A stretch of 64,000 bases of DNA from Glaucostegus cemiculus (taxonomy: Eukaryota): positions 37,386,001 through 37,450,000 of the forward strand of contig CDPCPM010000010.1 of NCBI GenBank assembly GCA_976551045.1. The letters run 5' to 3'. The notes beneath the pieces are model-generated. The model saw only the letters and a program-made list of their open reading frames with translations, had not been told where the DNA came from and ran no database searches. Positions 3,966 to 60,851 of this stretch are shown in pieces; the first letter of the stretch is position 1; every line of letters begins with the position of its first letter. A program made the position numbers and the translations under genes.

Positions 3966-6435
3966 TCACCTCACCTCAGGAACGCTGTAGTTCTCAGAAT
4001 TCGCCATTGCAATACCGTCTTTTCCGATAGATTCGTTCAGCACAACATTTTTGTCTGCAGAAGACCTACTCGTGTTGGGTTCGGCGAAATTTATCTTGGG
4101 AGACTGCAATGTCGAACACGATTCGTAGCGGACACGTTGAGAGAGAGGGTCGCCCCCAAATACATCAACATAGTTTGGTGGTATCTGAAGGCTTTTACTG
4201 GCCTTCTGAATTACATTCAAAGAATGTCTTGTTTCAAAGCAACACAATCTACTTAAGGAATGATGCTGGTATAGCATACCGTTCCTGTTTTTGTGAACTT
4301 TAACGGCGAGGATGACTAAAATTATGAGGAAAATGCTAGATGTTATTCCCAAGGCCATAACCAAGTGAAGGCTCAGTTCAGGAGTGAACCTCGGATCTGA
4401 GGACGAACTGCTGACACTGGAGAACGTTTCACTGTCAGTCCCAACCACAGATAATACTATAGTCACAGTGGCAGAGAGTGACGGAATTCCATTATCTTTT
4501 ACCACAATCACCAGCCTTTGAATAGAGGCATCGTTGTTCAAAAAACGACGGATAGTCCAGATCGCGCCAGTGTCTGCGGAAACAGCAAAGGGATCATGAT
4601 GGGTGGCTTGAAAAATCTGATAAGATTGTCGAGCATTCTGACCAGAGTCGGCATCAGTGGCCGATACCTTGACAACCAAGGAACCTGGTTCTGTGAACCT
4701 GGATATTGTTTCTGCTGCTGTTGACCTATATTCGGGTAGAGGATGTGTAATCACTGGAGCATTATCATTCTGATCAAGGATAACAACATTTACTGAGGCA
4801 TTACTGTAGAGTGCTGGTGCACCAGAATCCCACATTTGAACTTGCACCTGGATGTTTTTCAATTGCTCGTAGTCAAATGTTCTCCGAGCATATATGACAC
4901 CATTGGTTAAATTAATTGAGACATATGTGGTTACTGACGTATCCTGAACCTGAGACTCCAGGATAGAAAAGTTCAGTCGGGCGTTTTCTCCAATATCTGG
5001 ATCGAAGGCTGTCAGGGAAAATATGGAAGCCCCAACAACGTTGTTTTCCATAATATTTGTCGTGTATACCGGGCGAGTAAACCTTGGTGCATTGTCATTT
5101 ATATCTGAAACCTATACCCGGATGGTTTTTTTTGGAGGTGAGGGGAGGTTCCCCTGCATCCGTACATATTATACTAATATCATACTTGGGGGTGTTTTCG
5201 CGGTCTAGTAAATGTTGTACAAGAATTCTGTAATAGTTTTTTAAAGATGAATCTAGCTCAAAGGGTAGTTGGTTAGAAAGTTGACATTCCACGTGACTAT
5301 TTTGTCCGGAATCTCTGTCTTCTGCACTGAACAGAGCTACTATGGTCCCCAGGGGAGCGTCTTCCTAAACAGTCGTTGACGATGACTGCAATATTATCTC
5401 CGGTGCGTTATCATTCACGTCAACAACTTCAACCAATACGTCACAGTACTCCGGTATAGCGCCCGATCCCTTATCCATCGCCTGTATGTTGATCTCAAAG
5501 ACATTGCTTTCTTCATAGTCTAAGTTCCCTTTGAGTCTGAGTTCACCAGTTTTGGAGTGCAGATCAAAAATTTTACGGGCATTAGAAGAGATATGGCCAC
5601 GGAAAGAATACATTATATCGCCATTGAGGCCATCATCCAAGTCAGTGGCGTTCAATGTGATGATCAGTGTCCCTTTTGGTGCAGATTCCAATAGACTGAC
5701 TTTAAAAGCAGACTGAGAGAAAACATGCGCGTCGTCGTTTACATCCTTCACTATGACTATAATCTGAACCGTTCCCGATCTTGGAGGCAAACCGCCGTCC
5801 CTGGCTGTTAACGTTAAACTATGTGTTGACATTACTTCTCTGTCCAAAGGCTTTTTCAGTAACAATACTGGCCACTTGCCCTTCCCACTGCGCATTTGCA
5901 CATCCAGAGCAAAATATTCGTTCGGCTGCAGCTGGTAGGTTTGCAAGGCGTTAGTGCCAATGTCCGGATCCAGAGCCGATTCAAGAGGAAATCGCATTCC
6001 CGGTGCTGCGAACTCCGAGATTTCAAGGCGAAACTGGCTTTTTGGGAAACTGGGAGCATTGGCATTTACATCAAGAATCTCCACTTCCACCTGGTACAAA
6101 CTCAGGGGGTTTTCAAGCAAAACATCAAACGATAAGCGGCAATCGAGGTTCGACCCACAAAGCAGTTCTCTGTCGATTACTTCCTTCATAAATATAACCC
6201 CATTCTCCAGATTTACTTCAAAATACTGCTTCTTTGGACCGGTCGCGATCCGCAAACTGCGAGCCTTCAGCTGCTTTACATCCAATCCTAAATCGGCTGC
6301 GATGTTCCCAACAAAGGCTCCCAGCTGCAGTTCTTCAGGAACAGAATAACGAATCTGCCCAGACAAAATACCCCACGAGGAGAACACACAGCACAACAAT
6401 TGGCATTTTAGCAACCAATATATTTTATATTTCAT
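3966..6435 (-). pseudogene. Clustered protocadherin variable exon B1, disrupted
   Basis: ORF pieces 5365-6435, 5095-5292 and 3966-5051 align with intact paralogs. Lesions: in-frame TAG at 5365-5367 (Ser in paralogs); +1 frameshift in the T8 run at 5126-5133 (paralogs ttttctt); second TAG at 5112-5114 (CAG/GAG in paralogs). Ca-binding motifs are also decayed (DVNANAP, DVNDDAH). Splice donor at 3975/3974 is intact. Confidence 0.9.
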
Positions 6436-6619
6436 TGCCAGTAGAAGTCATTCCAATGGATTCAGGCCCTGACTGTATTCTTCATTGTCCTTTTAGCAGC
6501 GACTCGACGTTAGTTAGAACAAAAGCGATACAGAAAATACTCGTTCCTTTTGCGAATCTCGAAATATTTCATTTATATGCTAGCATTGTGCATTAAGTTG
6601 TGGGAGCATTCCTGCAGAA

Positions 6620-11614: not shown

Positions 11615-14092
11615 TCAGAAGCACCTCACCTCAGTAGTTACATTGTAATTGGACACCTCAGGATTCATCATTCCAGGATTTTCTTTACCATCAGGTTTCT
11701 TCAGCGTATAATGCATTGCTGCAGGTAAAACATACGCTTGAGGGGTCGTGAAGTCTCTCTTCACGGACTGCAGTGTTGAACACGACTCGTAACGAAAACT
11801 TTGAGAAAGTGGATCACCTCCGAATACCTCAACATAGTTCGGTGGTATCTGAAGGCTTCTACTGGCTTTTTGGATTCCATTCAAAGAATTTCTTGATTCC
11901 AAACAACAACAGATATTCTGCGAACTGTATTGGCATCCCACACCATTTCTGTTTTCATAAACCTTAACAGCGAGGATAATTAAAATCACGAGGAAAATGA
12001 TAGACGTTGTCCCTAAAGCTATGACCAAGGAAAAGTTCGGATCGGGAGTGAACTCATAATTTTTAGAGAAACCGGTGGCACTGGAGATCGTTTCACTCCC
12101 TTTCACAGATAATTCTATGGTCATGGTTGCAGAGAGAGATGGCATTCCATTATCTCTTACAACAATCACCAGCCTTTGCTTTGAAGTATCCTTGCTCCGA
12201 ATACCACGGATAGTCCAAATTTCCCCCGTGTCTGCTGAAATAGTGAACAGATCTCGATGTGTAGCCTGAAAAATGTGATAGGACAGCTGGGCATTTAGAC
12301 CAGCGTCGGCGTCAGTAGCTGATACCTTGACAACAAGGTATCCAGGTTCTGCAAACCTGGATATTGTCTCCATTGCTGTTGATCCATATTGTGGCAAAGG
12401 ATTCACGATCACTGGGGCGTTATCGTTCTGATCAAGGATAACAATATCTATTGACACGTTACTGGTGAGAGGTGGGAGGCCAGAATCCTGCACCTGAACG
12501 TAAATCTTAAAATCTTTCAGGTTCTCGTAGTCAAAAGATGTCTGAGCAGATATGACACCGGTCTGTGAGTTGATGGAGATATACGAGGCAATGGAGGAAT
12601 CCTGAACCTGAGATGGCAGGATGGAAAAGTTCATTCGGGCGTTCTGTCCTTTATCCGGGTCAAAAGCAGTCAAGGAGTATATGGAAGCCCCAATGACGTT
12701 GTTCTCCATGACGTGCACCGTATGTACCGCCTGCGTAAAGCTCGGTGCGTTGTCATTTACATCTGTAACATCTACATGAATTGTTTCCGTTGATGTAAGA
12801 CTGGGGTACCCTGCATCCATGCATATTATGGTAATGTCATACCTGGAGGTAGTTTCGCGATCCAGCGGATGCTGTATAAGCAGTTTATAAAAGTTTTCCA
12901 CAGACAAATCCAGCCTAAATGGCAGTTTATTTGAAATTTCACATTGTACCTGTCCATTTTGTCCAGAATCTTTGTCATCTACGCTTAGTAGTGCCACTAC
13001 CGTTCCAATTGAGGCATCTTCTGGCAGTGTGCTTGACGTAGTTGTTGACGTTATGTCAGGAGAGTTATCATTCACATCCATAACATTCACCAGCACATCA
13101 CAGTGCTGGGGCATTGAGTCAGGACCATTATCGACTGCTTGTATATTAATCTCAAAAAATTTGCTTTGTTCATAGTCTAAGTGCCCTTTCAGTCTGATTT
13201 CACCAGTTTTGGAATCAATGCTAAACATTTCAAGAACATTTTTCGAACTATAGCTGCTGATCGAGTACGTTATATCTCCATTAGGTCCATCGTCCAAGTC
13301 AGTGGCGTTTAATGTAATGATCAGGGATCGTAAGGGAGCCGATTCCAACAAACTCACCCTATAAACCGACTGCGAGAAAACAGGAGAATTGTCGTTCGCA
13401 TCCTTCACTGTGACTGTTACCTGGACCTTGCCCGATCGCACAGGGACTCCGCCGTCTTCAGCTAAAAGCGTGAACTCGTGACTTGTTACTGCTTCTCGAT
13501 CCAAAGGACTCTGCAGCACCAACACCGGCAACTTTCCTTTCCCACTGCGTTCTTGTACATTAACAATGAAATATTCATTTGGATGTAGCTGATACGTCTG
13601 CAAAGTATTAGTTCCAATATCCGGATCGTGAGCGGCTTCGAGGGGGAACCGCGCTCCCGGTGCAATGATTTCGGAGATTTCCAGGCGGATCACGCTTTTG
13701 GAGAAACTGGGAGCGTTGTCATTTACATCGAGTATCTCCACTTCCACCTGGTGCAGACTGAGGGGATTTTCAAGCACAACGTTGAAGGATAAAACGCAGT
13801 CGGTGCTCGGCCCGCAAAGTTCTTCCCTGTCGATTCTTTCATTCACAAATAAAATCCCTTTCTCTAAATTTACCTCAACATAGCGCTTCCTCGGACTGGG
13901 CGCCACCCGCAAACTGCGAGCCGACAGCTCTTTTAAATCTAGACCCAAATCGATGGCGATATTCCCAACAAAGGCCCCTCGTTGCAACTCCTCGGGAACA
14001 GAATATCGAATCTGCCCAGAAACTAGATTCGAGATGGAGAACAAACAGCAAAACAGTTGGTATTTCAGCAGCCAATATATGTTATATCTCAT
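11615..14092 (-). CDS. Clustered protocadherin variable exon A2 (825-aa ORF; spliced exon ends at 11630)
   Basis: Signal peptide followed by GQIRYSVPEE, EC1 Cys-X5-Cys (LCGPSTDC), six cadherin repeats with DRE/DYE and DxNDNxP motifs, TM helix, cytoplasmic tail. Donor GAG|GTGAGG at 11630/11629. Confidence 0.95.
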   Translation of the reverse strand: MRYNIYWLLKYQLFCCLFSISNLVSGQIRYSVPEELQRGAFVGNIAIDLGLDLKELSARSLRVAPSPRKRYVEVNLEKGILFVNERIDREELCGPSTDCVLSFNVVLENPLSLHQVEVEILDVNDNAPSFSKSVIRLEISEIIAPGARFPLEAAHDPDIGTNTLQTYQLHPNEYFIVNVQERSGKGKLPVLVLQSPLDREAVTSHEFTLLAEDGGVPVRSGKVQVTVTVKDANDNSPVFSQSVYRVSLLESAPLRSLIITLNATDLDDGPNGDITYSISSYSSKNVLEMFSIDSKTGEIRLKGHLDYEQSKFFEINIQAVDNGPDSMPQHCDVLVNVMDVNDNSPDITSTTTSSTLPEDASIGTVVALLSVDDKDSGQNGQVQCEISNKLPFRLDLSVENFYKLLIQHPLDRETTSRYDITIICMDAGYPSLTSTETIHVDVTDVNDNAPSFTQAVHTVHVMENNVIGASIYSLTAFDPDKGQNARMNFSILPSQVQDSSIASYISINSQTGVISAQTSFDYENLKDFKIYVQVQDSGLPPLTSNVSIDIVILDQNDNAPVIVNPLPQYGSTAMETISRFAEPGYLVVKVSATDADAGLNAQLSYHIFQATHRDLFTISADTGEIWTIRGIRSKDTSKQRLVIVVRDNGMPSLSATMTIELSVKGSETISSATGFSKNYEFTPDPNFSLVIALGTTSIIFLVILIILAVKVYENRNGVGCQYSSQNICCCLESRNSLNGIQKASRSLQIPPNYVEVFGGDPLSQSFRYESCSTLQSVKRDFTTPQAYVLPAAMHYTLKKPDGKENPGMMNPEVSNYNVTTEVRCF

Positions 14093-14264
14093 TTCCAGGA
14101 GAAATCATTCCAATGGTTTCAACCCGAGACAAAGCCTTTTAACAGCGATGTAATTTAAATGGGACAGATACGACACAGAAAATATGTATACCTCCTTGCG
14201 ATTTAGTGGAATGTGTTCATTTAAATGCTCTCATGTTGCTGCAATTCGAAGTGAATCGTGCACA

Positions 14265-14435
14265 AATCCTCCGGAGCTGCTGGCTATCCAGTTTTCACGG
14301 CGTCTGATCTTACGCGATGGCGGCTGGGTACTGAAGGGGGCTGTGCAGATCACTTGGCACATCTTAGCTTTTGATTGGTAGACAACGTAACAATCGTATC
14401 TGATCAATCCGAGTGCAGTTAATTTCTTAAAGCAA
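14265..14435 (-). promoter_or_regulatory. A-type cPcdh promoter module (A2)
   Basis: CGGAGCTGCTGGCT; TGAAGGGGGCTG (14332-14343); TGATTGG (14372-14378); degenerate second box (TCAAT); TTTCTTAAAGC. Confidence 0.8.
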
Positions 14436-23116: not shown

Positions 23117-25591
23117 TTAATATCTCCTCACCTCGGGCATACTGTATTTTTCAGAATTCACCATTTCAGTATTTTCTTTCCCGAGAGGTTCGTTCAGCAC
23201 AGAATTCTTGTCTGCAGAAGTTCTACACCTGCTGGGCACGATGAAATCTATCTTGGTAGACTGCAGTGTTGAACATGATTCGTAACGGAATCTTTGGGAG
23301 AGAGGGTCACCCCCAAACACTTCAACATAGTTTGGTGGTATCTGAAGGCTTTTACTGGCCTTCTGGATTCCATTCAAAGAATGTCTTGTGCCAAGACAAC
23401 AACAAATATCCAGGGAATGGTGCGGGTGCAGCATACCATTTCTGTTTCTGTGAAGATTAACGGCGAGAATGATTAAAATAATGAGAAAAATGCTAGATGT
23501 TATTCCCAAGGCTATAACCAAGGCAAGACTGAGTTCAGGAGCGATCCTCGGATCTGAGGGCAAATTGCTGACGCTGGAGAAGGTTTCACTGTCAGTCCCA
23601 ACCACAGATAATACTATAGACACAGTGGCAGAGAGTGATGGAATTCCATTATCTTTTACCACAACTACCAGCCTTTGATTAGAGGCATCTTTGTTCAAAA
23701 TTCGACGTATGGTCCATATTTCGCCAGTGTCTGCGGAAATAGTAAAGAGATCATGATGGGTTGCCTGAAAAATCTGATAAGATAGTCGAGCATTCTGACC
23801 AGAGTCGGAATCAGTGGCCGATACCTTGACAACCAAGGAACCTGGTTCTGTGAACCTGGATATTGTTTCTATTGCTGTTGATCCATATTCGGGTAAAGGG
23901 TGTGTAATCACTGGGGCATTATCATTCTGATCAAGGATAACAACATTCACTGACGCATTACTGCTGAGCACTGGAGCACCAGAATCCCAGACTTGAATTT
24001 GAACCTGAAAGGCTTTCAATTGCTCATAGTCAAAATTTCTCTCAGCAGAGATGACACCAGTCGCTGAATTAATTGAGACGAACGAGGCCAAAGAGGAATT
24101 CTGAACCTGAGACTCCAGGATAGAAAAGTTCAGTCGCGCATTTTCTCCAGCATCTGGATCGAAGGCAGACACCGAAAATATGGAAGCCCCAATGGCAGTG
24201 TTTTCCATAACATTTGCCGTATATAGCGGGCAAGAAAACTTTGGGGTGTTGTCATTTATATCTGAAACCTGTACCCGGATGGTTTTCTTGGAAGTGAGGG
24301 GAGGCTCTCCTGCATCCGTGCATATTACAGTAATATCATACTTGGGTGTGTTTTCACGATCCAACTGATGCTGTACAAGTATTCTGTAATAGTTCTTTAT
24401 GGAGGAATCCAGTTTAAAAGGTAACCGATTTGAAATTTGACAATGTATCTGACCATTTTGCCCGGAATCTCTGTCTTCTGCACTGAACAGAGCTACGACA
24501 GTTCCAAGTGGAGCGTCCTCGGAAACTGCAGTTGACGAAGACCGTAAAGAAACCTTCGGCGCGTTATCATTTACATCGACAACTTGAACCAATACATCAC
24601 AGTACTCGGGTATAGCGCCAGAACCCTTATCCATTGCCTGTATGTTAATCTCAAAAGCACGGATTTTTTCGTAGTCCAAATTCCCATTGAGTCTTATTTC
24701 ACCTGTTTTGGAGTTCAGATGAAAGTTTTCCCGAGAAGCTGCTGAAATGTGGCTACGGAAGGAATACATTATCTCTCCATTGGGGCCATCGTCCAGGTCA
24801 GTGGCGTTCAATGTGATGATCAGGGTCCCTTTAGGTGCAGACTCCAACAGACTGACCCTGTAAACCGACTGAGAGAAAACAGGCGCGTTGTCGTTTACAT
24901 CCTTCACTATGACTATAATCTGAACCGTTCCCAATCTCCGAGGCAGACCGCCGTCCTTGGCTGTTAACGTTAAATTGTGGGTTGATATCACTTCTCTGTC
25001 CAACAGCTTTTGTAACAACAATACTGGCCTTTTCCCCTTCCCACTACGCATTTGTACCTCCAGAGTAAAATAATCGTTTGGTTGTAGCTGGTAGGTTTGC
25101 AAGGCGTTAGTGCCAATGTCCGGATCGTGTGCGGGTTCAAGAGGAAATCGCATTCCTGGTGCTGCAAACTCTAAGATTTCAAGGCGAAACTGGCTTTTTG
25201 GAAAAATGGGGGCATTGTCATTTACATCGAGAATCTCCACTTCCACCTGGTACAGACTCAGCGGGTTTTCAAACACAACATCAAACGATAAGCGGCAATC
25301 GAGGTTCGACCCACAAAGCGGTTCTCTGTCGATTATTTCTTTCACAAATAAAATCCCATTATCCAAATTTATGTCAAAATACTGTTTTCCAGGACCGGGC
25401 CCCATCCGCAAACTGCGAGTCGACAGCTGATTTACATCTAAACCTAAATCGGCTGCGATTTTCCCAACAAAGGCTCCCAGTTGTAGTTCTTCAGGAACAG
25501 AATAACGAATCTGCCCAGACACAGTACCCCACAAGGAGAACACACAGCACAACAATTGGCATTTTAGCAACCAATATATTTTATATTTCAT
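23117..25591 (-). CDS. Clustered protocadherin variable exon B3 (824-aa ORF; spliced exon ends at 23132)
   Basis: Intact ORF with signal peptide, EC1-EC6, TM and cytoplasmic tail. Donor GAG|GTGAGG at 23132/23131. Confidence 0.95.
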   Translation of the reverse strand: MKYKIYWLLKCQLLCCVFSLWGTVSGQIRYSVPEELQLGAFVGKIAADLGLDVNQLSTRSLRMGPGPGKQYFDINLDNGILFVKEIIDREPLCGSNLDCRLSFDVVFENPLSLYQVEVEILDVNDNAPIFPKSQFRLEILEFAAPGMRFPLEPAHDPDIGTNALQTYQLQPNDYFTLEVQMRSGKGKRPVLLLQKLLDREVISTHNLTLTAKDGGLPRRLGTVQIIVIVKDVNDNAPVFSQSVYRVSLLESAPKGTLIITLNATDLDDGPNGEIMYSFRSHISAASRENFHLNSKTGEIRLNGNLDYEKIRAFEINIQAMDKGSGAIPEYCDVLVQVVDVNDNAPKVSLRSSSTAVSEDAPLGTVVALFSAEDRDSGQNGQIHCQISNRLPFKLDSSIKNYYRILVQHQLDRENTPKYDITVICTDAGEPPLTSKKTIRVQVSDINDNTPKFSCPLYTANVMENTAIGASIFSVSAFDPDAGENARLNFSILESQVQNSSLASFVSINSATGVISAERNFDYEQLKAFQVQIQVWDSGAPVLSSNASVNVVILDQNDNAPVITHPLPEYGSTAIETISRFTEPGSLVVKVSATDSDSGQNARLSYQIFQATHHDLFTISADTGEIWTIRRILNKDASNQRLVVVVKDNGIPSLSATVSIVLSVVGTDSETFSSVSNLPSDPRIAPELSLALVIALGITSSIFLIILIILAVNLHRNRNGMLHPHHSLDICCCLGTRHSLNGIQKASKSLQIPPNYVEVFGGDPLSQRFRYESCSTLQSTKIDFIVPSRCRTSADKNSVLNEPLGKENTEMVNSEKYSMPEVRRY

Positions 25592-25777
25592 TGCCAGTAG
25601 AAGTCATTCCAACGGTGTCAGGCCCTGACTGTATTCTTCATTGTTCTTTTAATAGCCAGTCGACGTTAATTATAACAAAGAGCGATACAGAAAATACTTA
25701 TACCTTTTGCGAATCTCGAAATATTTCATTCTTCTGCTCGTATTTTGCCTACAGTTGCGAGAGAATTCCTGCAAAAA

Positions 25778-29889: not shown

Positions 29890-32364
29890 TCAGGAGCACC
29901 TCACCTCGGTATTTATATTGCAAATGGATTCTTCTGGCTTTATCAGTCCTGGAGTTTCATTCACAACAGGATTTTTCTGGACATAATGCATTGCTGCCGA
30001 TAGGCCACACGTCTGAGGGGTCGTCAGGTCTCTCTTCACGGACCGTAATGTTGAACACGACCCGTAACGGAATTTCTGAGAAAGTGGATCACCTCCGAAT
30101 ACCTCAACATAGTTCGGTGGTATTTGAAGACTTCTGCTGGCCTTTTGAATTCCATTTAGAGAATGTCTTGATTCCAAACAACAACAGATATTCTGAGAAC
30201 CGTATTGGCATCCCACACCATTTCTGTTTTTATGTACCTTAACAGCGAGGATAATTAAAACCACGAGGAAAATGACAGACGTTGTCCCTAAAGCTATGAC
30301 CAAGGGAAAACTCATATCGGGTGTGAAATCTTCTTTAGATAAACCGGTGGCACTGGAGATCGTGTCACTCCCTTTCACAGATAATTCTATGGTCACAGTT
30401 GCAGAAAGAGATGGCGTTCCATTATCTGTTACAATAATCACTAACCTTTGTATGTAAGCATCCTTGTTCTCAATACGACGGATGGTCCATATTTCCCCCG
30501 TATCTGCTGAAATAGTGAATAGATCTCGATGCGTAGCCTGAAAAATGTGATAGGACAGCTGGGCATTTAGACCAGCGTCGGCGTCAGTAGCTGATACCTT
30601 GACAACCAGGTATCCAGGTTCTGCAAACCTGGATATTGTCTCCATTGCTGTTGATCCATATTGTGGCAAAGGATTCACGATCACTGGGGCGTTATCGTTC
30701 TGATCAAGGATAACAATATCTACAGAACCGTTACTGGTGAGAGGTGGGAGCCCAGAATCCTGTACCCGAACGTAAACCTTAAACCCTTTCAGTTTCTCGT
30801 AGTCAAAAGATGTCTGAGCAGATATGACTCCAGTCTGTGTGTTGATGGAGATATACGAGGCGATGGAGGAATCCTGAACCTGAGATGGCAGGATAGAAAA
30901 GTTCATTCGGGCGTTTTGTCCTTTATCCGGGTCAAAAGCAGTCAAGGAGTATATGGAAGCCCCAATGACGTTGTTCTCCATGACGCGCACCGTATGTACC
31001 GCCTGCGTAAACCTCGGTGCGTTGTCATTTACATCTGTAACATCTACACGAATTGTTTCTGTTGATGTAAGACTGGGGTACCCTACATCCGTGCATATTA
31101 TGGCAATGTCATACCTGGAGGTAGTTTCGCGATCCAGTGGATGCTGTGTAAGCAGTCTGTAAAATCTTTCCATCGAGGAGTCGAGTATGAACGGCACGTT
31201 AGTTGAAATTTGACATTGCACTTGTCCATTTTGTGCAGAATCTTTATCTTCTACGCTGAACAGTGCTACAGCCGTTCCAATTGAGGCATCCTCTGACACT
31301 GTGCTTGAAGGAGACGTCAACGTCACGTAAGGAGCATTGTCATTCACATCGATTACATCCACCAATACATCACTGTGCTGGGGCATTGCGTAAGGACCAT
31401 TATCGATTGCTTGTACATTAATCTCAAAAAAATTGCATTGTTCATAGTCTAAATGCCCTTTCAGTCTGATTTCACCAGTTTTGGAATCGATGCGAAATAC
31501 TTCAGGAACAGTTTCAGAACTATGGCTACTGATCGAGTACGTTATGTCTCCATTGGGTCCATCGTCCAAGTCAGTGGCGTTTAATGTAATGATCAGTGAT
31601 CCTAAGTGAGCTGATTCCAATAAACTTACCCTATAAACGGACTTGGAAAAAACAGGAACGTTGTCATTCGCATCCTGCACTGTGATTGTTACCTGAACCT
31701 TGCCCGATCTCGCAGGGGCTCCGCCGTCTTCGGCAAGCAGCGTTAACTCGTGGCTTGATATTGTTTCTCTGTCCAAAGAGCTCTGCAGCACCAACACCGG
31801 TAACTTTCCTTTCCCGCTGCGTTCTTGTACATCAAGAATAAAATACTGATTGGGAATGAGCTGGTATGTTTGCAAGGAGTTTGTTCCAATGTCCGGATCG
31901 CGTGCGGCCTCGAGGGGGAATCGCGCTCCCGGTGCAATAATCTCGGAGATTTCCAGGCGGATCTGGCTTTGGGGAAAACTGGGAGCGTTGTCATTTACAT
32001 CGAGAATCTCCACTTCCACCTGGTGCAGACTGAGGGGATTTTCGAGCACAACGCTCAAGGATAAAACACAATCGTTGCTCGGCCCGCAAAGTTCTTCCCT
32101 GTCGATTCTTTCATTCACAAATAAAATCCCATTCTCCAAATTTACGTCAAGATACCGCTTCCTCGGACTGGGCGCCACCCGTAAACTGCGAGCCGACAGC
32201 TCATTTAAATCTAACCCCAAATCAATGGCGATATTCCCAACAAAGGCGCCTCGTTGCAATTCCTCGGGAACAGAATATCGAATCTGTCCAGAAACAAGAT
32301 TCCAGCGGGCGAAAAAACAGCAAATCAGTTGGTATTTCAGCAGCCAATATATGGTATATCTCAT
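29890..32364 (-). CDS. Clustered protocadherin variable exon A4 (824-aa ORF; spliced exon ends at 29905)
   Basis: Intact ORF with six cadherin repeats, TM and cytoplasmic tail; closest paralog of A2. Donor GAG|GTGAGG at 29905/29904. Confidence 0.95.
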   Translation of the reverse strand: MRYTIYWLLKYQLICCFFARWNLVSGQIRYSVPEELQRGAFVGNIAIDLGLDLNELSARSLRVAPSPRKRYLDVNLENGILFVNERIDREELCGPSNDCVLSLSVVLENPLSLHQVEVEILDVNDNAPSFPQSQIRLEISEIIAPGARFPLEAARDPDIGTNSLQTYQLIPNQYFILDVQERSGKGKLPVLVLQSSLDRETISSHELTLLAEDGGAPARSGKVQVTITVQDANDNVPVFSKSVYRVSLLESAHLGSLIITLNATDLDDGPNGDITYSISSHSSETVPEVFRIDSKTGEIRLKGHLDYEQCNFFEINVQAIDNGPYAMPQHSDVLVDVIDVNDNAPYVTLTSPSSTVSEDASIGTAVALFSVEDKDSAQNGQVQCQISTNVPFILDSSMERFYRLLTQHPLDRETTSRYDIAIICTDVGYPSLTSTETIRVDVTDVNDNAPRFTQAVHTVRVMENNVIGASIYSLTAFDPDKGQNARMNFSILPSQVQDSSIASYISINTQTGVISAQTSFDYEKLKGFKVYVRVQDSGLPPLTSNGSVDIVILDQNDNAPVIVNPLPQYGSTAMETISRFAEPGYLVVKVSATDADAGLNAQLSYHIFQATHRDLFTISADTGEIWTIRRIENKDAYIQRLVIIVTDNGTPSLSATVTIELSVKGSDTISSATGLSKEDFTPDMSFPLVIALGTTSVIFLVVLIILAVKVHKNRNGVGCQYGSQNICCCLESRHSLNGIQKASRSLQIPPNYVEVFGGDPLSQKFRYGSCSTLRSVKRDLTTPQTCGLSAAMHYVQKNPVVNETPGLIKPEESICNINTEVRCS

Positions 32365-32534
32365 TTCCAGGAGAAATCATTCCATTGGTTTCAACCCGAG
32401 ACAAAGCCTTTTAACAGCGGTTGAATTTAAATGGGTCAGATACGTCTTAGAAAATGACTGTACCTTGTGAAGTACTGGAATGTGTTCAGTTAAATGCTGT
32501 CATGTTGCTGCAATTCGAAGTGAATCGTGCACAA

Positions 32535-41348: not shown

Positions 41349-43817
41349 TCACCTCACCTCAGGCACACTGTATTTTTCAGAGTTCACCTTTCCAGCATTT
41401 TCTTTCGCAATAGATTCGTTCAGCACAAAATTCTTGTCTGCAGAAGTTCTACACTTGCTGGGGACGATACAATCTCTCTTGGTAGACTGTAATGTCGAAC
41501 ATGACTCGTAGCGGAATCTTTGGGAGAGAGGGTCACCCCCAAATACTTCAACATAGTTTGGTTGTATCTGAAGGCTTTTACTGGCATTCTGAATTCCATT
41601 CAAAGAATGTCTTGATTCAAAGCAACAACAAGTATCCAGTGAATGGTGCTGGTATACAATACCATTCCTGTTTTTGTGAACTTTAACGGCGAGGATGAAT
41701 AAAATTATGAGGAAAATGCTAGATGTTATTCCCAAGCCTATAACCAAGGAAATGCTCAGTTCAGGAGTGAAACTCGGATCGGGCGACGAACTACTGATAC
41801 TTGGGAAACTTTCACTGCCAGGCCCAACCACAGATAATACTATAGTCACAGTGGCAGAGAGTGATGGAATTCCATTATCTTTTACCACAACCACCAGTCT
41901 TTGCTTAGGGGCATCATTGCTGAAAATTGGACGGATAGTCCATATTTCGCCAGAGTCTGTGGATATAGTAAAGAGATCACGATGCGTGGCCTGAAAGATC
42001 TGATAAGAGAGTCGAGCATTCTGACCAGAGTCGGCATCAGTGGCCGAGACTTTGACAACTAAAGAGCCTGGTTCTGTGAACCTGGATATTGTTTCTACTG
42101 CTGTTGATCCATATTCGGGTAAAGGGTATGTAATCACTGGGGCATTATCATTCTGATCAAGAATAACAACATTCACTGAGGCATTACTACTGAGCGCTGG
42201 CGCACCAGAATCCCGCACTTGCACTTGAATGTGGAAGTTTTTCAATTGCTCATAGTCAAAAGACCTCTGAGCATATATGACACCACTCGCCGAATTAATC
42301 GAGGCAAAGGAGATTATTGAGGTATTCTGAACCACAGACTCCAGGATAGAAAAGTTCAGTCGGGCGTTTTCTTCAGCATCTGGATCGAAGGCTGTCACGG
42401 AAAATATGGAAGCCCCAATAACGTTGTTTTCCATAACATTTGCCGTGTAGACTGGGCGAGAAAATATTGGTGCGTTATCATTTATATCTGAAACCTCTAC
42501 ACGGATGGTTTTCGTAGAAGTGAGAGGAGGGTCCCCTTTATCCGTGCATATTATAGTAATATCATATTTGGCGATGTTTTCGCGATCCAGCATATGCTGC
42601 GTGAGGATTCTATAGTGGTTCATCACAGAGGAATCTAGCTCAAAAGGCAAGTGAGTTGAAATTTTACATTGTACTTGACCATTTTGTCCAGAATCGCTGT
42701 CCTCTGCAGTGAACAGAGCCACTGGAGTGCCTGGTGGATCATCCTCCGAAATTACAGATGAAGTAGATCGTAAAGTCACCTCCGGCGCGTTATCATTAAC
42801 ATCAACAATTTCCACCAATACGTCGCTGTACTCGGGTATAGCGCCAGAACCCTTATCTATCGCCTGCACGTTAATCTCAAAGGCACTGCTTTCTTCGTAG
42901 TCCAAGTTCCCTTTGAGTCTGATCTCACCAGTTTTGGAGTTCAGATCAAAAAGGTTCCGTACAGTAGCAGAAATATAGCTGCCGAAAGAATATATTATCT
43001 CTCCATTGAGGCCATCGTCCAGGTCAGTGGCGTTCAATGTGATGATCAGGGTCCCTTTCGGTGCAGACTCCAATAGACTGACGCTGTAAACTGACTGAGA
43101 GAAAACAGGCGCGTTGTCGTTTACATCCTTCACTATGATTATAATCTGAACCGTTCCCGATCTCGGAGGTAGCCCGCCGTCCTTGGCGATGAGCGTTAAA
43201 TTATGGATTGGTATCGTTTCTCTGTCCAAAGGCTTTTGTAACAACAGTACCGGCCGCTTGCCCTTCCCACTGCGGATTTGTACATCCAGACTAAAATATT
43301 TGTTCGGCTGCAGCTGGTAGGTTTGCAAGTCGTTAGTGCCAATGTCCGGATCGTATGCGGGCTCCAGAGGAAATCGCATTCCCGGTGCTGCAAACTCTAT
43401 AATTTCAAGGCGAAACTCTTTCTTTGCGAATCTGGGAGCATTGTCATTTACATCGAGAATCTCCACTTCCACTGGGTGCAGACTCAAGGGGTTTTCAAGC
43501 ACAATGTTCAGGGATAAGCGGCAATCGAGGTTCGACCCACAAATCAGTTCTCTGTCGATTATTTCCTTCACAAATAAAACCCCATTCTCCAAATTTATGT
43601 CGAAATACCGGTTCCTAGGACCGGGCCCGATCCGCAAACTGCGAGCCTTCAGCTGCTTTACTTCTAACCCTAAATCGGCTGCGATTTTCCCAACAAAGGT
43701 TCCCAGTTGTAGTTCTTCAGGAACAGAATAACGAATCTGCCCAGACACAGTACCCCACAAGCAGAACACACAGCACAACAATTGGCATTTTAGCAACCAA
43801 TATATTTTATATTTCAT
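41349..43817 (-). CDS. Clustered protocadherin variable exon B5 (822-aa ORF; spliced exon ends at 41358)
   Basis: Intact ORF with EC1-EC6, TM and cytoplasmic tail. Donor GAG|GTGAGG at 41358/41357. Confidence 0.95.
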   Translation of the reverse strand: MKYKIYWLLKCQLLCCVFCLWGTVSGQIRYSVPEELQLGTFVGKIAADLGLEVKQLKARSLRIGPGPRNRYFDINLENGVLFVKEIIDRELICGSNLDCRLSLNIVLENPLSLHPVEVEILDVNDNAPRFAKKEFRLEIIEFAAPGMRFPLEPAYDPDIGTNDLQTYQLQPNKYFSLDVQIRSGKGKRPVLLLQKPLDRETIPIHNLTLIAKDGGLPPRSGTVQIIIIVKDVNDNAPVFSQSVYSVSLLESAPKGTLIITLNATDLDDGLNGEIIYSFGSYISATVRNLFDLNSKTGEIRLKGNLDYEESSAFEINVQAIDKGSGAIPEYSDVLVEIVDVNDNAPEVTLRSTSSVISEDDPPGTPVALFTAEDSDSGQNGQVQCKISTHLPFELDSSVMNHYRILTQHMLDRENIAKYDITIICTDKGDPPLTSTKTIRVEVSDINDNAPIFSRPVYTANVMENNVIGASIFSVTAFDPDAEENARLNFSILESVVQNTSIISFASINSASGVIYAQRSFDYEQLKNFHIQVQVRDSGAPALSSNASVNVVILDQNDNAPVITYPLPEYGSTAVETISRFTEPGSLVVKVSATDADSGQNARLSYQIFQATHRDLFTISTDSGEIWTIRPIFSNDAPKQRLVVVVKDNGIPSLSATVTIVLSVVGPGSESFPSISSSSPDPSFTPELSISLVIGLGITSSIFLIILFILAVKVHKNRNGIVYQHHSLDTCCCFESRHSLNGIQNASKSLQIQPNYVEVFGGDPLSQRFRYESCSTLQSTKRDCIVPSKCRTSADKNFVLNESIAKENAGKVNSEKYSVPEVR

Positions 43818-44009
43818 TGCCAGTAGAAGTCATTCCAATGGATTCAGGCCCTGGCGATTTTCTTCATTGTCCTTTTTGCAGCGAGTCGGCGTTCAAAAGA
43901 ACAAAAGCGATACAGAAAATACTCATACCTCTTGCGAATCTCTCGAACTATTTCATTCAAATGCTCGCATTTTGACTACAGTTGTTTGATGATTCCTCCA
44001 AAAAAAAAA

Positions 44010-48123: not shown

Positions 48124-50586
48124 TTAGATGTACCTCACCTCATTATTTACAGTGTAGCTGGAGGCTTCAACCATTATCAATCCCGAATTCTCTTTCCCAA
48201 TACTATTCTTCTGGGCACAATCCATTTTTGCAGATAAGCCGCACGTCTGTGGGTTCGTGAAGTCTCTCTTCACCGACTGCAATGTTGAACACGATTCATA
48301 ACGGAAACTCTGAGAAAGTGGATCACCTCCGAATACCTCAACATAGTTCGGTGGTATCTGAAGATTTCTACTGGCCTTTTGAATTCCATTCAGAGAGTTC
48401 CTTGCTTTCAGACAACAGCAGACATTCTGAGAATCACAATTGTGCCCCACTCCATTTCTGTCTTCACGAACTTTAACAGCCAGAATAACTAAAATCACGA
48501 GGAATATGACAGATGTTGTCCCCAAGGATATGACCAAATAAAGGTTCAGATCAGGTTTGAACTCTGGATTTGTAGACAAACTAGTGGCACTGGAGATCGT
48601 TTCACTTCCTTTGACAGATAACACTATAGTCACAGTGGCAGAAAGGGGTGGCGTTCCATTATCTTTTACGACAATCACAAGCTTTTGCTGAGAAGCATCC
48701 TTGTTCCCAATACGTCGGATAGTCCAAACTTCCCCTGTGTCTCCTGAAATGGTGAACAGATCGTGATGGGTAGCCTGCAAAATATGGTAAGACAGACGGG
48801 CATTCTGACCAGCGTCAGCGTCAGTACCTGAAACCTTGACAACGAGGTATCCCGGTTCAGCCAGCCTGGATATTGTCTCCATTGCTGTTGAGCCGTATTG
48901 GGGTAAAGGATTCAGGATCACTGGGGCGTTGTCGTTCTGATCAAGGATAACAAAATCTATTGTAACGTTACTGGTGAGGGGCGGGACTCCAGAATCCTGC
49001 ACCCGAACTTGAATCTGGAAGTTTTTCAATTTCTCGAAGTCAAACGATCTCTGAGCAAATATGACACCAGTCTGTGAGTTGATGGAGACATATGGGGATC
49101 CGGATGAATCCTGAATTGAAAAATTCAGTCGAGCATTCTGTTCTGTGTCTGGATCGAAGGCTGTCAGGGAGAATATGGATTTCCCAATAACGTTGTTCTC
49201 CATGACCCTTGCCGTGTATACGGGCTGCGTAAACCTTGGTGCGTTATCGTTTACATCCGAAACCTCCACGCGAATTGTTTTCTTGGATGTGAGGGGAGGG
49301 ATTCCTGCATCCGTGCATGTTATAATAACGTCAAATCTGGAGGTAGTTTCACGATCCAGTGCATGTTGGAGAAACAGTTTATAAATCTTTTTCAGAGAGG
49401 AATCTAGTTTAAACGGTAGTTTGTTTGAAATTTGGCATTGTACCTCTCCATTTTGTCCAGAATCTTTGTCATCTACGCTGAGTAGCGCCACAACTGTTCC
49501 GACTGTGGCATTTTCAGGCACTGTATTTGACAAGGATGTCAACATAAGGTCAGGGGCGTTATCATTTACATCTGCGACATCCACTAACACAGCACAGTGC
49601 TGAGGCATAGGGTAAGGGCCATTGTCGATTGCTTGTATATTAATCTCAAAATAATCGTTTTCTTCATAGTCTAAATGCCCTTTCAGTCTGATTTCACCAG
49701 TTCTGGAATTCACGTCAAATAGTTCATGAAATTTTCCTGAATTATGACCGCTCAGTGAATATGTTATCTCTCCATTAGAACCATCGTCCAAATCAGAGGC
49801 GTTTAACGTAATAATCAAAGTTCCTACAGGAGCTGATTCCAACAGATTGACACTATAAACCGACTGCGCGAAAACAGGCGAGTTGTCGTTCGCATCCTGC
49901 ACTGTGATTGTTACTTGGACTTTGCCTGATCTTACAGGGACTCCGCCATCTTCAGCAAACAAAGTTAAATCGTGGGCTGGTATTGTTTCTCTATCTAATG
50001 GTCTCTGCAGCACTAACACTGGCAACTTTCCCTTCCTATTGCGTGACTCTACATCAAGAATGAAATATTCATTCGGAACGAGCTGGTATGACTGTAGGGA
50101 GTTAGTGCCAATGTCCGGGTCGTGAGCGGACTCGAGGGGGAATCGAGATCCCGGTGCCATAATCTCAGAGATTTCCAGGCGGATCTGGCTTTGGGGAAAA
50201 CTCGGAGCGTTGTCATTTACATCGAGTACCTCCACTTCCACCTGGTGCAGACTGAGGGGATTTTCAAGCACAACGTTGAAGGTTAAAACGCATTCGGTGC
50301 TCGGCCCGCAAAGTTCTTCCCTGTCGATTTTTTCATTCACAAATAAAATCCCATTCTCCAAATTTACGTCAACATACTGCTTCTTCGGACTGGGCGCCAC
50401 CCGTAAGCTGCGAGCCGACAGCTGCTTTAAATCTAACCCCAAATCAATGGCGATATTCCCAACAAAGGCGCCTCGTTGCAATTCCTCGGGAACAGAATAA
50501 CGAATCTGTCCAGAAACAAGATTCCAGCGGGAGAACACACAGCAAATCAGTTGGTATTTCAGCAGCCAATATATGTTATATCTCAT
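48124..50586 (-). CDS. Clustered protocadherin variable exon A6 (820-aa ORF; spliced exon ends at 48139)
   Basis: Intact ORF with six cadherin repeats (5-aa deletion in EC5), TM and cytoplasmic tail. Donor GAG|GTGAGG at 48139/48138. Confidence 0.95.
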   Translation of the reverse strand: MRYNIYWLLKYQLICCVFSRWNLVSGQIRYSVPEELQRGAFVGNIAIDLGLDLKQLSARSLRVAPSPKKQYVDVNLENGILFVNEKIDREELCGPSTECVLTFNVVLENPLSLHQVEVEVLDVNDNAPSFPQSQIRLEISEIMAPGSRFPLESAHDPDIGTNSLQSYQLVPNEYFILDVESRNRKGKLPVLVLQRPLDRETIPAHDLTLFAEDGGVPVRSGKVQVTITVQDANDNSPVFAQSVYSVNLLESAPVGTLIITLNASDLDDGSNGEITYSLSGHNSGKFHELFDVNSRTGEIRLKGHLDYEENDYFEINIQAIDNGPYPMPQHCAVLVDVADVNDNAPDLMLTSLSNTVPENATVGTVVALLSVDDKDSGQNGEVQCQISNKLPFKLDSSLKKIYKLFLQHALDRETTSRFDVIITCTDAGIPPLTSKKTIRVEVSDVNDNAPRFTQPVYTARVMENNVIGKSIFSLTAFDPDTEQNARLNFSIQDSSGSPYVSINSQTGVIFAQRSFDFEKLKNFQIQVRVQDSGVPPLTSNVTIDFVILDQNDNAPVILNPLPQYGSTAMETISRLAEPGYLVVKVSGTDADAGQNARLSYHILQATHHDLFTISGDTGEVWTIRRIGNKDASQQKLVIVVKDNGTPPLSATVTIVLSVKGSETISSATSLSTNPEFKPDLNLYLVISLGTTSVIFLVILVILAVKVREDRNGVGHNCDSQNVCCCLKARNSLNGIQKASRNLQIPPNYVEVFGGDPLSQSFRYESCSTLQSVKRDFTNPQTCGLSAKMDCAQKNSIGKENSGLIMVEASSYTVNNEVRYI

Positions 50587-50759
50587 TTCCAGGAGAAATC
50601 ATTCCAATGGTTTCAGCCCGAGACAATATCTTTCAACGGTAGCTTGATTCAAACAGGGAAATTACAACGCATAAAATATCTATACCTCTTTTGCGAATTG
50701 TTGGAACGTGTTCATTTATGTGCTCTCATGTTGTCTCTAATTCGAAGAAGAGCGAGCAC

Positions 50760-58197: not shown

Positions 58198-60666
58198 TCA
58201 TCTCACCTCAGGAACAATGTATTTTTCAGAATTCGCCATTCCAGTATTTTCTTTCTCAATAGTTTCGTTCAGCACACTTTTTTTCTCTGCAGGTGTTCTG
58301 AACTTGCTGGGGACGGTGAAATCTCTCTTCGTAGACTGCAGTGTCGAACATGATTCGTAGCGGAATCTTTGGGAGAGAGGGTCGCCCCCAAATACTTCAA
58401 CATAGTTTGGTGGTATCTGAAGGCTTTTACTGGCCTTCTGAATTCCATTCAAAGAATGTCTTGAGTCAAGGCAACAACAAATACCCATGGAATGATGCTG
58501 GTGCACCATACCATTCCTGTTTTTGTGAACTTTAACGGCGAGGATGATTAAAATTATGAGAAAAATGCTGGATATAATTCCCAAAGCTATAACCAAGGAA
58601 AGGGTCAGTTCAGGAGTGAACCTCGGATCTAAGGACGAATTGCTGACACTGGAGAAGGTTTCACGATCAGTCCCAACCACAGATAACGCTATAGTTACAG
58701 TGGCATAGAGTGATGGAATTCCATTATCTTTTACCACAACCACCAGCCTTTGATTAGAGGCATCCCTGCTGAAAATTTGACGTATGGTCCATATTTCGCC
58801 AGAGTCTGTGGATATAGTAAAGAGATCATCATGGGTGGACTGTAAGATCTGATAGGAGAGTCGAGCATTCTGACCAGAGTCGGCATCAGTGGCCGATACC
58901 TTGACAACCAAGGATCCTGGTTCTGTGAACCTGGGTATTGTTTCTATTGCTGTTGACCCATATTCGGGTAAAGGGTGTGTAATCACTGGAGCATTATCAT
59001 TCTGATCAAGGATCGCAAAATTCACTAAGGCATTACTGCTGAGCGCTAGCGTGCCGGAATCCCGCACTCGCACTCTAATTTGGAAATTTTTCAATTGCTC
59101 ATAGTCAAAAGTTCTCTGAGCATATATGACACCACTCGCCGAATTAATCGAGACAAAAGAGATTACAGAGGTATTCTGAACTCCAGACTCCGGGATAGAA
59201 AAATTCAGTCGCCCATTTTCTCCAATATCTGGATCGAAGGCCGTCAGGGAAAAAATGGAAGCCCCAATAACATTGTTTTCCATAACATTTGCCGTGTAAA
59301 CCGGGCGAGAAAACTTTGGTGTGTTGTCATTTATATCTGAAACCTCTACCCGGATGGTTTTCTTGGAAGTAAGAGGAGGGTCCCCCTTATCAGTGCATAT
59401 TATGGTAATATCGTACTTGGGGACCTTTTCGCGATCCAGCAAATAGTGAGTGAGGATTCTATAGTAGTTCATTCCAGATGAATCTAGCTCAAAAGGAAGT
59501 TGATTTGAAATCTGACATTGTACTTGACCATTTTGTCCAGAATCTCTGTCTTCTGCTGTGAACAGAGCTACGACACTCCCGGGGGCACTATCTTCGGATA
59601 TTGCAGTTGAGGAAGATCCGGGTATCACCTCCGGCGCGTTATCATTCACATCAACAATTTCGACTAATACGTCGCAGTAACCGGGTATAGCACTAGAACC
59701 TTTATCCGTTGCCTCTATATTGATCTCATAGATGGTGTTCTCTTCATAGTCCAAGTTCCCTTTAAGTCTGATTTCACCAGTTCTGGAGTTTAGATCAAAG
59801 ATCTCACGGGCACTAGCAGAAATATAGCTGCCGAATGAATACATTATCTCTCCATTGAGGCCATCGTCCAGGTCAGTGGCATTTAATTTGATGATCAAGG
59901 TCCCTTTCGGTGCAGATTCCAACAGAATGACCTTGTAAACCGACTGAGAGAACACAGGCGCGTTGTCGTTTACATCCTTCACTATGACTATAATCTGAAC
60001 CGTTCCCGATCTCGGAGGCAGACCGCCGTCCTTGGCGATAAGCGTTAAATTGTGGGTTGGCGTCGTTTCTCTATCTAATGGTTTCCCTAGCAACAAAACT
60101 GGACGTTTTCCCTTCCCACTGCGCAGTTGTACGTCGAGAGTAAAATATTCGTTCGGCTGTAGCTGGTAGATTTGCAAGGCGTTAGTGCCAACATCTGAAT
60201 CCAGTGCCGGTTCAAGAGGAAAACGCATTCCTGCTACGGCGAACTCCAAAATTTCAAGGTGAAACTGGCTTTTTGGGAAAGTTGGAGCATTGTCATTTAC
60301 ATCGAGAATCTCCACTTCCACCGGATGCAGGCTCGGGGGGTTTTGAAGTGCAACGTTCAATGATAAGCGGCAATCGAGGTTCGACCCACAAATCAGTTCT
60401 CTGTCGATTATTTCCTTCACAAATAAAATCCCATTCTCCAAATTTACATCGAAATACTGCTTCCTTGGACTGGGCGCTACCCGCAAACTGCGAGCCTTCA
60501 GCTGCTTTACATCTAAACCTAAATCAACTGCGATTTTCCCAACAAAGTCTCCCAGCTGCAGTTCTTCAGGAACAGAATAACGAATCTGCCCAGACACAGT
60601 ACACCACGACGAGAACACACAGCACAACAATTGGCATTGTAGCAACCAATGTATGTTATATTTCAT
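58198..60666 (-). CDS. Clustered protocadherin variable exon B7 (822-aa ORF; spliced exon ends at 58207)
   Basis: Intact ORF with EC1-EC6, TM and cytoplasmic tail. Donor GAG|GTGAGA at 58207/58206. Confidence 0.95.
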   Translation of the reverse strand: MKYNIHWLLQCQLLCCVFSSWCTVSGQIRYSVPEELQLGDFVGKIAVDLGLDVKQLKARSLRVAPSPRKQYFDVNLENGILFVKEIIDRELICGSNLDCRLSLNVALQNPPSLHPVEVEILDVNDNAPTFPKSQFHLEILEFAVAGMRFPLEPALDSDVGTNALQIYQLQPNEYFTLDVQLRSGKGKRPVLLLGKPLDRETTPTHNLTLIAKDGGLPPRSGTVQIIVIVKDVNDNAPVFSQSVYKVILLESAPKGTLIIKLNATDLDDGLNGEIMYSFGSYISASAREIFDLNSRTGEIRLKGNLDYEENTIYEINIEATDKGSSAIPGYCDVLVEIVDVNDNAPEVIPGSSSTAISEDSAPGSVVALFTAEDRDSGQNGQVQCQISNQLPFELDSSGMNYYRILTHYLLDREKVPKYDITIICTDKGDPPLTSKKTIRVEVSDINDNTPKFSRPVYTANVMENNVIGASIFSLTAFDPDIGENGRLNFSIPESGVQNTSVISFVSINSASGVIYAQRTFDYEQLKNFQIRVRVRDSGTLALSSNALVNFAILDQNDNAPVITHPLPEYGSTAIETIPRFTEPGSLVVKVSATDADSGQNARLSYQILQSTHDDLFTISTDSGEIWTIRQIFSRDASNQRLVVVVKDNGIPSLYATVTIALSVVGTDRETFSSVSNSSLDPRFTPELTLSLVIALGIISSIFLIILIILAVKVHKNRNGMVHQHHSMGICCCLDSRHSLNGIQKASKSLQIPPNYVEVFGGDPLSQRFRYESCSTLQSTKRDFTVPSKFRTPAEKKSVLNETIEKENTGMANSEKYIVPEVR

Positions 60667-60851
60667 TGCCAGTAGAAGTCATTCCAATGGTTTCAGGCCC
60701 AAGTTGTATTCTTCATTTTCCATTTAACAGTGAGTCGGAGTTAAATGAAACAAACACGATACAGAAAATATTTGCACCTCATGCTAATCTCGCGAATGAT
60801 TTCCTTAAAAAAAGATTTTACCCACAGTTGTTGGAGGATCCCTGCAAAACA

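What the first reader, a model, noticed from the sequence alone, without database searches (positions are those of the whole stretch)
6425..6451. Conserved out-of-frame uATG exactly 16 nt before every protocadherin start codon
Seen: all seven genes have TGGA-ATG(A) 16 nt upstream of the main ATG (A of the uATG at 6451, 14108, 25607, 32380, 43833, 50602, 60682). In six it opens an 8-codon uORF, M-T/I-S-T/P-G-N-E-I-TAA, which overlaps the main start (stops at 6425, 14082, 25581, 43807, 50576, 60656). Position and frame are kept across both classes although their UTRs diverge further upstream. The uATG has a -3 purine like the main ATG. Known: overlapping uORFs prevent reinitiation and leave leaky scanning as the route to the main ORF. 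Inference: a built-in translational dosage limiter across the cluster. I do not know of it being described, but could not search the literature.
Basis: partly seen in the sequence, partly recalled or inferred. Interest (0 to 1): 0.7.

Follow-up and report, generated by a model that had tools for sequence, protein, structure and literature searches.

The report
Conserved decoy start in ray protocadherins
In a ray, 26 of 27 genes of one branch of the protocadherin (neuron identity tag) cluster keep an out-of-frame start codon exactly 16 bases before the real one, better conserved than the bases around it, and it likely diverts part of the ribosomes and would lower protein output, which is a known kind of control that I did not find described for these genes.

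Summary
Observation confirmed in 7 of 7 window genes, but those seven come from only two lineages. In the whole genome the -16 ATG is kept in 26 of 27 genes of one subfamily (nu-like) and in 0 of 43 other protocadherin-like genes with an assigned start, so it is not cluster-wide. On the gene tree it changes once against about 10 changes expected from its flanks (P 0.001-0.03 by model). Its -3 G never changes, the spacer has no indel, and other leader ATGs change 3-8 times. The peptide and the stop are not conserved: the unit is the start codon. Mammalian reporter data rate its context as strong as the main start (79-98 vs 83-85). Protein models from sharks, rays and a chimaera are compatible with it in 13 of 15 cases. 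Best reading: an overlapping uORF that damps translation (0.58). Translation and repression are untested; a DNA-binding motif is not excluded. The scan found this before in several other cartilaginous-fish genomes and in the adjacent window of this genome.

The parts
6425..6451 (-). -16 out-of-frame ATG and 8-codon overlapping uORF (MTSTGNEI), class A gene, broken copy
14082..14108 (-). -16 ATG and 8-codon overlapping uORF (MISPGNEI), class B gene
   Evidence: bridged by a contig of run X1
25581..25607 (-). -16 ATG and 8-codon overlapping uORF, class A gene
32222..32380 (-). -16 ATG and 52-codon overlapping uORF (early stop lost), class B gene
43807..43833 (-). -16 ATG and 8-codon overlapping uORF, class A gene
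50576..50602 (-). -16 ATG and 8-codon overlapping uORF, class B gene
60656..60682 (-). -16 ATG and 8-codon overlapping uORF, class A gene
3975..6435 (-). Protocadherin variable exon, broken (premature stop and frame change); end at a putative splice donor
11630..14092 (-). Protocadherin variable exon, intact: 26-aa signal peptide, cadherin repeats, cytoplasmic stretch; end at a putative splice donor
23132..25591 (-). Protocadherin variable exon, intact
29905..32364 (-). Protocadherin variable exon, intact
41358..43817 (-). Protocadherin variable exon, intact
48139..50586 (-). Protocadherin variable exon, intact
58207..60666 (-). Protocadherin variable exon, intact
14350..14433 (-). Conserved promoter block of the 14092 gene (near-invariant GCTTTAAGAA at -341, CCAAT-like box near -286, GATC near -259); the same block lies 332-369 nt upstream of all 27 starts
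   Evidence: its role as promoter is inferred
6462..6485 (-). Second, non-overlapping 7-codon uORF at -50 in class A genes (also starting at 25641, 43867, 60716); less conserved
   Evidence: 7 of 27 genes, 3 changes

Best explanation
An out-of-frame ATG sits exactly 16 bases before the start codon in 26 of 27 genes of one protocadherin subfamily and changes less than its flanks, and it is likely kept by selection as a decoy start that would take a share of scanning ribosomes into a dead-end frame running past the true start. Shown: position, frame, conservation, restriction to this subfamily, lack of a conserved peptide, stop or RNA structure. Inferred: it lies in a leader of roughly 200 nt; ribosomes start there about as readily as at the main AUG; those that do cannot make protocadherin, so protein comes from ribosomes that leak past it or win the short-range competition between the two AUGs; termination far upstream of the constant-exon junctions might also send some mRNAs to nonsense-mediated decay. 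The net effect would be a fixed, subfamily-wide damper on protein per mRNA.
For: 26 of 27 genes, including members only 58-66% identical in the first cadherin repeat. Changes on the tree: 0, 1, 0 at A, T, G against a mean of 3.2 per column in -27..-1 and 4.4 in -45..-1; empirical P 0.006 and 0.001, the same on trees from the coding region, from signal peptide plus first repeat, and from the promoter; simulation P 0.0004-0.03 by rate model. Fourfold-degenerate sites change 5.2 times on average (55 sites, 23 intact genes). It is the only triplet between -257 and -2 kept in 25 or more of 27 genes; other leader ATGs at -142, -128 and -50 change 8, 5 and 3 times. The pattern mirrors the main start: -3 G 0 changes, -2 and -1 variable (4, 2 vs 3, 2), ATG fixed. 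No gap in -16..-1 against 40 distinct gaps in -170..-28. Context efficiency 79-98 for 8 of 14 contexts (20 of 26 genes) against 83-85 for 2 of 11 main contexts (18 of 27 genes), optimal Kozak 94 (PMC4299517 supplement). One contig of probable-RNA run X1 bridges the site and keeps the ATG and -3 G while differing at -18, -9 and -7. 13 of 15 read-through protein models from other cartilaginous fish have Cys or Trp five codons before the Met, after Glu, Gly, Lys or Gln, as an ATG at -16 requires. Control clade with an ATG at -10: not conserved above flanks (P 0.38), context rated 29.
Against: No direct evidence of translation or repression. One intact gene (L018) has lost the ATG, while all four broken copies keep it. 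Among the 23 intact genes alone P is 0.023 and the A at -17 is as fixed as the ATG, so a GnAATG DNA motif fits too. The whole -27..-1 stretch is slower than the rest of the leader, with other near-fixed bases (-27 A, -11 T, -6 C) that this reading does not explain. ATGs are not clearly depleted in -170..-28 (65 seen, 73 expected), so these leaders tolerate upstream ATGs. Run X1 is only guessed to be RNA. The protein models cannot show the third base of the codon, and the profile that ranked them held the upstream residues. Efficiency values come from mammalian cells.
Confidence: 0.58

Rival explanations
1. The letters are the core of a DNA- or RNA-binding-protein site (GnAATG; on the other strand CATTCC, the TEAD/MCAT core) in the first exon, and the ATG is incidental.
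For: 20 of 27 genes have GGAATG, the reverse complement of the MCAT core (MCAT = CATTCCT in PMC5876656, passages). In intact genes -19 G and -17..-14 AATG are near-fixed. Broken copies keep it. Other near-fixed bases lie around it.
Against: None of 27 has the full CATTCCT. Six changes fall on -18 and -17 and one on the ATG, plus one more at -18 in run X1: the pattern of a start codon context. The palindrome reading (CATT-GG-AATG) fails: the left arm changes 16 times, the right arm 3. The site is fixed to the start codon, while its distance to the promoter block varies by 37 nt.
Confidence: 0.2
2. No function: one ancestral ATG was inherited through tandem duplication and gene conversion, in a slowly evolving stretch next to the start codon, and is tolerated.
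For: The seven window genes are two young lineages. The -27..-1 stretch is slow overall; with strong rate variation among sites P rises to 0.01-0.03. An intact gene lacks it. Leader ATGs are not depleted. A similar inherited ATG at -10 drifts in another clade.
Against: The result holds in 12 divergent genes (P 0.012) and on three different trees. Other leader ATGs of the same genes change 3-8 times. Vertebrate leaders are depleted of AUGs near the start (PMC4890304, passages), so a strong-context AUG there should be lost, not kept. Shark and chimaera models are compatible with it.
Confidence: 0.12
3. The uORF feeds the main start instead of damping it: ribosomes that stop 8-11 nt past the main AUG slide back and restart there, or short uORFs further upstream make an ATF4-like stress switch.
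For: 16 of 26 uORFs stop at +8 or +11, two of them through different codons. Most leaders hold 1-4 further ATGs whose frames close upstream.
Against: The early stop changes 5 times on the tree and 9 genes run 38-52 codons. No consensus RNA structure. The upstream ATGs are not conserved. Review PMC10275272 (passages) states that out-of-frame overlapping uORFs typically repress and are passed by leaky scanning. 16 nt leaves little room for delayed reinitiation to tell the two AUGs apart (inference).
Confidence: 0.1

Closest known systems
Out-of-frame overlapping uORFs of vertebrate mRNAs, passed by leaky scanning (PMC10275272 and PMC4890304, passages read)
   Same: AUG upstream of and out of frame with the main start; frame runs past the main AUG in 25 of 26 genes; peptide not conserved.
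   Different: Sits only 16 nt upstream in a context rated as strong as the main start, where vertebrate leaders are depleted of AUGs and uORF contexts tend to be weak; kept at one spacing in a whole paralog family.
Conserved inhibitory uORFs of 13 Hox paralogs (Ivanov et al. 2022, PMC8892498, abstract and opening read)
   Same: uORF start codons conserved across a tandem gene family of developmental regulators.
   Different: Hox uAUGs are in poor context and were shown by CAGE and reporters to inhibit; here the context is adequate, the spacing is fixed at 16 nt and nothing has been tested.
Competition between closely spaced AUGs (Li et al. 2022, PMC9743702, passages read)
   Same: Two out-of-frame AUGs under 17 nt apart, the range in which that study saw competition and a weaker effect of the upstream AUG.
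   Different: That work used reporter libraries, mostly in yeast; this would be a natural, conserved case in a vertebrate gene family.
Elephant shark protocadherin nu subcluster (PMC2764143 and PMC7811963 passages; the original paper could not be read)
   Same: The signal-peptide profile of these genes hits only cartilaginous-fish proteins among the 118 named rows of 120 listed, including Callorhinchus milii protocadherin nu8.
   Different: The passages read describe promoters and CTCF sites of clustered protocadherins but no upstream start codon.

Membership tests
Out-of-frame overlapping uORF | AUG upstream of and out of frame with the main AUG | tested here: met
   26 of 27 genes at -16
Out-of-frame overlapping uORF | Frame stays open past the main AUG | tested here: met
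   25 of 26; L001 stops at -4
Out-of-frame overlapping uORF | Lies inside the mRNA leader | tested here: inconclusive
   One contig of run X1 bridges it with 37 aligned and 141 further letters upstream; RNA status is a guess and contigs cannot show a start; conserved promoter block lies 260-370 nt upstream
Out-of-frame overlapping uORF | Context good enough to initiate | tested here: met
   79-98 for 8 of 14 contexts in a mammalian reporter table; not measured in fish
Out-of-frame overlapping uORF | Translated in vivo | not testable with these tools
   No ribosome profiling at hand
Out-of-frame overlapping uORF | Represses the main ORF | not testable with these tools
   Needs reporters
Conserved-peptide uORF | Peptide sequence and length conserved | tested here: not met
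   4 to 52 codons; no codon-position pattern in the spacer
ATF4/GCN4 delayed-reinitiation switch | Conserved short uORF upstream of the inhibitory one | tested here: not met
   Other leader ATGs change 3-8 times on the tree; the defining feature is recalled, the class is named in PMC10275272
Stop-start termination-reinitiation (TURBS type) | Conserved stop near the start plus an upstream RNA structure | tested here: not met
   Early stop in 16 of 26, 5 changes; no consensus fold
TEAD/MCAT element | CATTCCT | tested here: not met
   0 of 27 have the 7-mer; 20 of 27 have the CATTCC core; binding not testable
Protocadherin nu subcluster | Orthology to elephant shark nu genes | tested here: inconclusive
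   Signal-peptide profile hits C. milii nu8 at E 5e-9; no tree with delta, epsilon, mu and nu references was built

The most novel reading that the evidence does not exclude
An ancient translational gate on a neuronal identity code: since before rays and chimaeras split, nu protocadherins have carried two equally strong AUGs held inside the ribosome's competition range, so each mRNA is a coin toss between protein and a decay-prone dead end. This would add a post-transcriptional layer that equalises or thins isoform dosage on top of stochastic promoter choice, tunable by start-codon stringency, with one exempt isoform (L018) made at a higher level.
Probability: 0.13. Interest if true: 0.72.

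Novelty: new member of a known kind. Interest (0 to 1): 0.4.

Why it matters
Clustered protocadherin control is described almost wholly at the level of promoter choice and splicing. A conserved decoy start would show that one subfamily also sets protein dose at translation, which matters because recognition depends on the mix of isoforms on the cell surface (own knowledge). It is also a natural test set for the closely-spaced-AUG competition model: 26 genes, one spacing, varied contexts, and one intact gene without it as a built-in control. The mechanism class itself is ordinary.

Tried and rejected
Cluster-wide element: rejected, 0 of 43 other genes have an ATG at -16. Conserved peptide or stop: rejected. 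Upstream in-frame coding extension (the main frame reads LECFxLE-M in divergent genes): rejected, because the ATG itself makes an in-frame TGA in 19 of 27 genes and changes show no codon pattern. Intron removing the ATG: no AG between it and the main ATG in the seven window genes; the apparent 96-nt joint is a divergent paralog stretch of about equal length. RNA structure: none in the consensus. Palindrome: arms unequal. Same-frame ATGs in other subfamilies (-10 in 10 genes, -25 in 3, -13 in 1): only three independent groups; the -10 one is not conserved above its flanks and has a weak context. Sequencing runs: no RNA holder on record; one run guessed to be RNA with a 0.05 share. Its contigs give no cover upstream of about -195 or in the downstream intron, and two contigs end at about -194 and -196 in a block shared by paralogs; this cannot show a start of transcription and is not counted as evidence. 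One search (short-region protein search) found nothing; (17 hits) added no case that I used. The careful protein tree did not finish; the quick one was used. Papers PMC2268768 (elephant shark cluster) and PMC311048 (human-mouse cluster) were not held.

Full report
What is there. The window holds seven protocadherin variable exons on the minus strand, each with a 26-residue signal peptide, cadherin repeats and a putative splice donor. The nearest named proteins are from sawfish and skates (87-89% over the first 130 residues), so the genome is ray-like. All seven have an out-of-frame ATG exactly 16 nt before the main ATG at the stated places; six open 8 codons and one opens 52. One gene (6435) is broken. 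The seven alternate between two young lineages, so by themselves they say little.

Whole cluster. A search of the own genome gave 79 matches (a lower bound). Seven are the window genes, one was a second piece of the same gene and one weak hit on another contig was not fetched; I fetched the other 70. The window lies in a contiguous block of 27 related exons (L001-L020 and the seven) that share a signal-peptide type and promoter; 24 of them form a clade with support 99 in a quick tree, and three truncated copies were left out of that tree. 26 of the 27 have the ATG at -16; L018, which is intact, has AGG. Of the other 50 loci, 43 had an assignable start, and none has an ATG at -16. A profile of the signal peptide hits elephant shark protocadherin nu8, so the block is likely the nu subcluster; I did not build a tree with references.

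More than chance. Counting the fewest changes per column on the gene tree, the A, T and G change 0, 1 and 0 times. The other 24 columns in -27..-1 average 3.2 and the 42 in -45..-1 average 4.4; three random columns do as well with P 0.006 and 0.001. The result is the same on trees from the coding region, from the signal peptide plus first repeat, and from the promoter, which argues against a conversion artefact. For 12 divergent genes P is 0.012, for the 23 intact genes 0.023. Simulation gives 0.0004 with equal rates and 0.007-0.03 with strong rate variation at the scales that match the near flanks. It is the only triplet between -257 and -2 kept in 25 or more of 27 genes; leader ATGs at -142, -128 and -50 change 8, 5 and 3 times; the spacer has no gap against 40 distinct gaps in -170..-28. 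So the site is probably under selection, with moderate rather than overwhelming statistics.

What is selected. The -3 G is fixed and -2 and -1 vary, as at the main start. The peptide is not kept (4 to 52 codons), the early stop changes five times, and there is no consensus RNA fold. In the reporter table of PMC4299517 (supplement rows only), 8 of 14 upstream contexts score 79-98 and 2 of 11 main contexts score 83-85, against 94 for an optimal context. In another clade an ATG at -10 has a pyrimidine at -3, scores 29 and drifts like its flanks, which is a useful negative control. Against this reading: among intact genes the A at -17 is also fixed, 20 of 27 carry the TEAD core, four broken copies keep the ATG, one intact gene does without it, several other bases in -27..-1 are near-fixed for no clear reason, and leader ATGs are not clearly depleted (65 seen, 73 expected).

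Is it in the mRNA, and in other species. Conserved promoter-like blocks lie 260-370 nt upstream. One run, only guessed to be RNA, has a contig that bridges the site, continues about 190 nt upstream without an intron and resembles paralog L016; it differs at -18, -9 and -7 but not at the ATG or its -3 G. Of five contigs laid, only this one informs on the letters. Among 129 signal-peptide matches in the proteins fetched, 15 models read through the leader in the main frame; 13 of 15 have Cys or Trp five codons before the Met, after Glu, Gly, Lys or Gln, which is what an ATG at -16 gives; they come from sharks, rays and a chimaera. The two misses are internal joins of fused models. This is compatible evidence, not proof: the third base is unseen and the search profile held those residues.

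How it likely works. A scanning ribosome meets the -16 AUG first. If it starts there it runs past the main AUG out of frame and makes no protocadherin; overlapping uORFs of this kind typically repress and are passed by leaky scanning (PMC10275272, passages). At under 17 nt two AUGs compete, and the upstream one inhibits less the closer it is (PMC9743702, passages), so partial damping is expected rather than shut-off. Starts at out-of-frame AUGs triggered mRNA decay in that yeast study; here termination would lie far upstream of the constant-exon junctions, so decay is possible (inference). Vertebrate leaders are depleted of AUGs near the start and uORF contexts tend to be weak (PMC4890304, passages), which makes a fixed strong-context AUG at -16 unusual. 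None of these steps is tested in this system.

Known or new. The class is well known; the closest family-wide case is the Hox uORFs (PMC8892498, abstract and opening). Six searches (listings only) showed no paper on an upstream start codon in clustered protocadherins; the library lacks most subscription papers, and the elephant shark cluster paper and its supplements could not be read. Passages of PMC2764143, PMC7811963, PMC3308164 and PMC5876656 were read for cluster names, promoters and the TEAD motif. The scan's own notes report the same element in other cartilaginous-fish genomes and in the adjacent window of this genome; these are unchecked notes, read after my own counts, and I do not count them as support.

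Verdict. A real, probably selected feature of one protocadherin subfamily, best read as an overlapping uORF start that damps translation (0.58). New member of a known kind; interest 0.4.

Noticed in passing
window 3969-6435 (-): The first variable exon is broken by a premature stop after codon 356 and a frame change near 5128-5153 (or an assembly error); it keeps the -16 ATG.
   Followed up: partly
L018 (G000:C10:37494300-37497700): The one intact subfamily member without the -16 ATG (AGG instead); a natural control. Earlier notes often report a single exception per genome; whether it is the same ortholog is untested.
   Followed up: partly
L046, L048, L051-L058; L025-L027; L040: Other subfamilies have out-of-frame ATGs at -10, -25 and -13, all in the same frame as the -16 one. 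The -10 one has a weak context and is not conserved above flanks; the others were not tested.
   Followed up: partly
window, about 332-369 nt upstream of each start (e.g. 14424-14433, -): GCTTTAAG is invariant in all 27 promoters (and the following AA nearly so), far better kept than the CCAAT boxes beside it; the factor that binds it was not identified.
   Followed up: no
L001-L006, about -60 to -70 from the start: Pyrimidine-rich stretch ending in AG that looks like a splice acceptor in the leader of the divergent genes; public fused gene models appear to splice in at about this place. Real use is unknown.
   Followed up: no
window 6485, 25641, 43867, 60716 (-): Class A genes have a second, 7-codon uORF at -50 that closes 13 nt before the -16 ATG.
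   Followed up: partly
window 3969-60666: The two gene classes alternate strictly (A-B-A-B-A-B-A), as from tandem duplication of an A+B pair.
   Followed up: no
window 16752-17381 (+); 36958-38097 (-): Intergenic ORFs: the first hits Pfam PF09004, which I recall as common in retroelement remnants; the second is low-complexity with no Pfam hit.
   Followed up: partly
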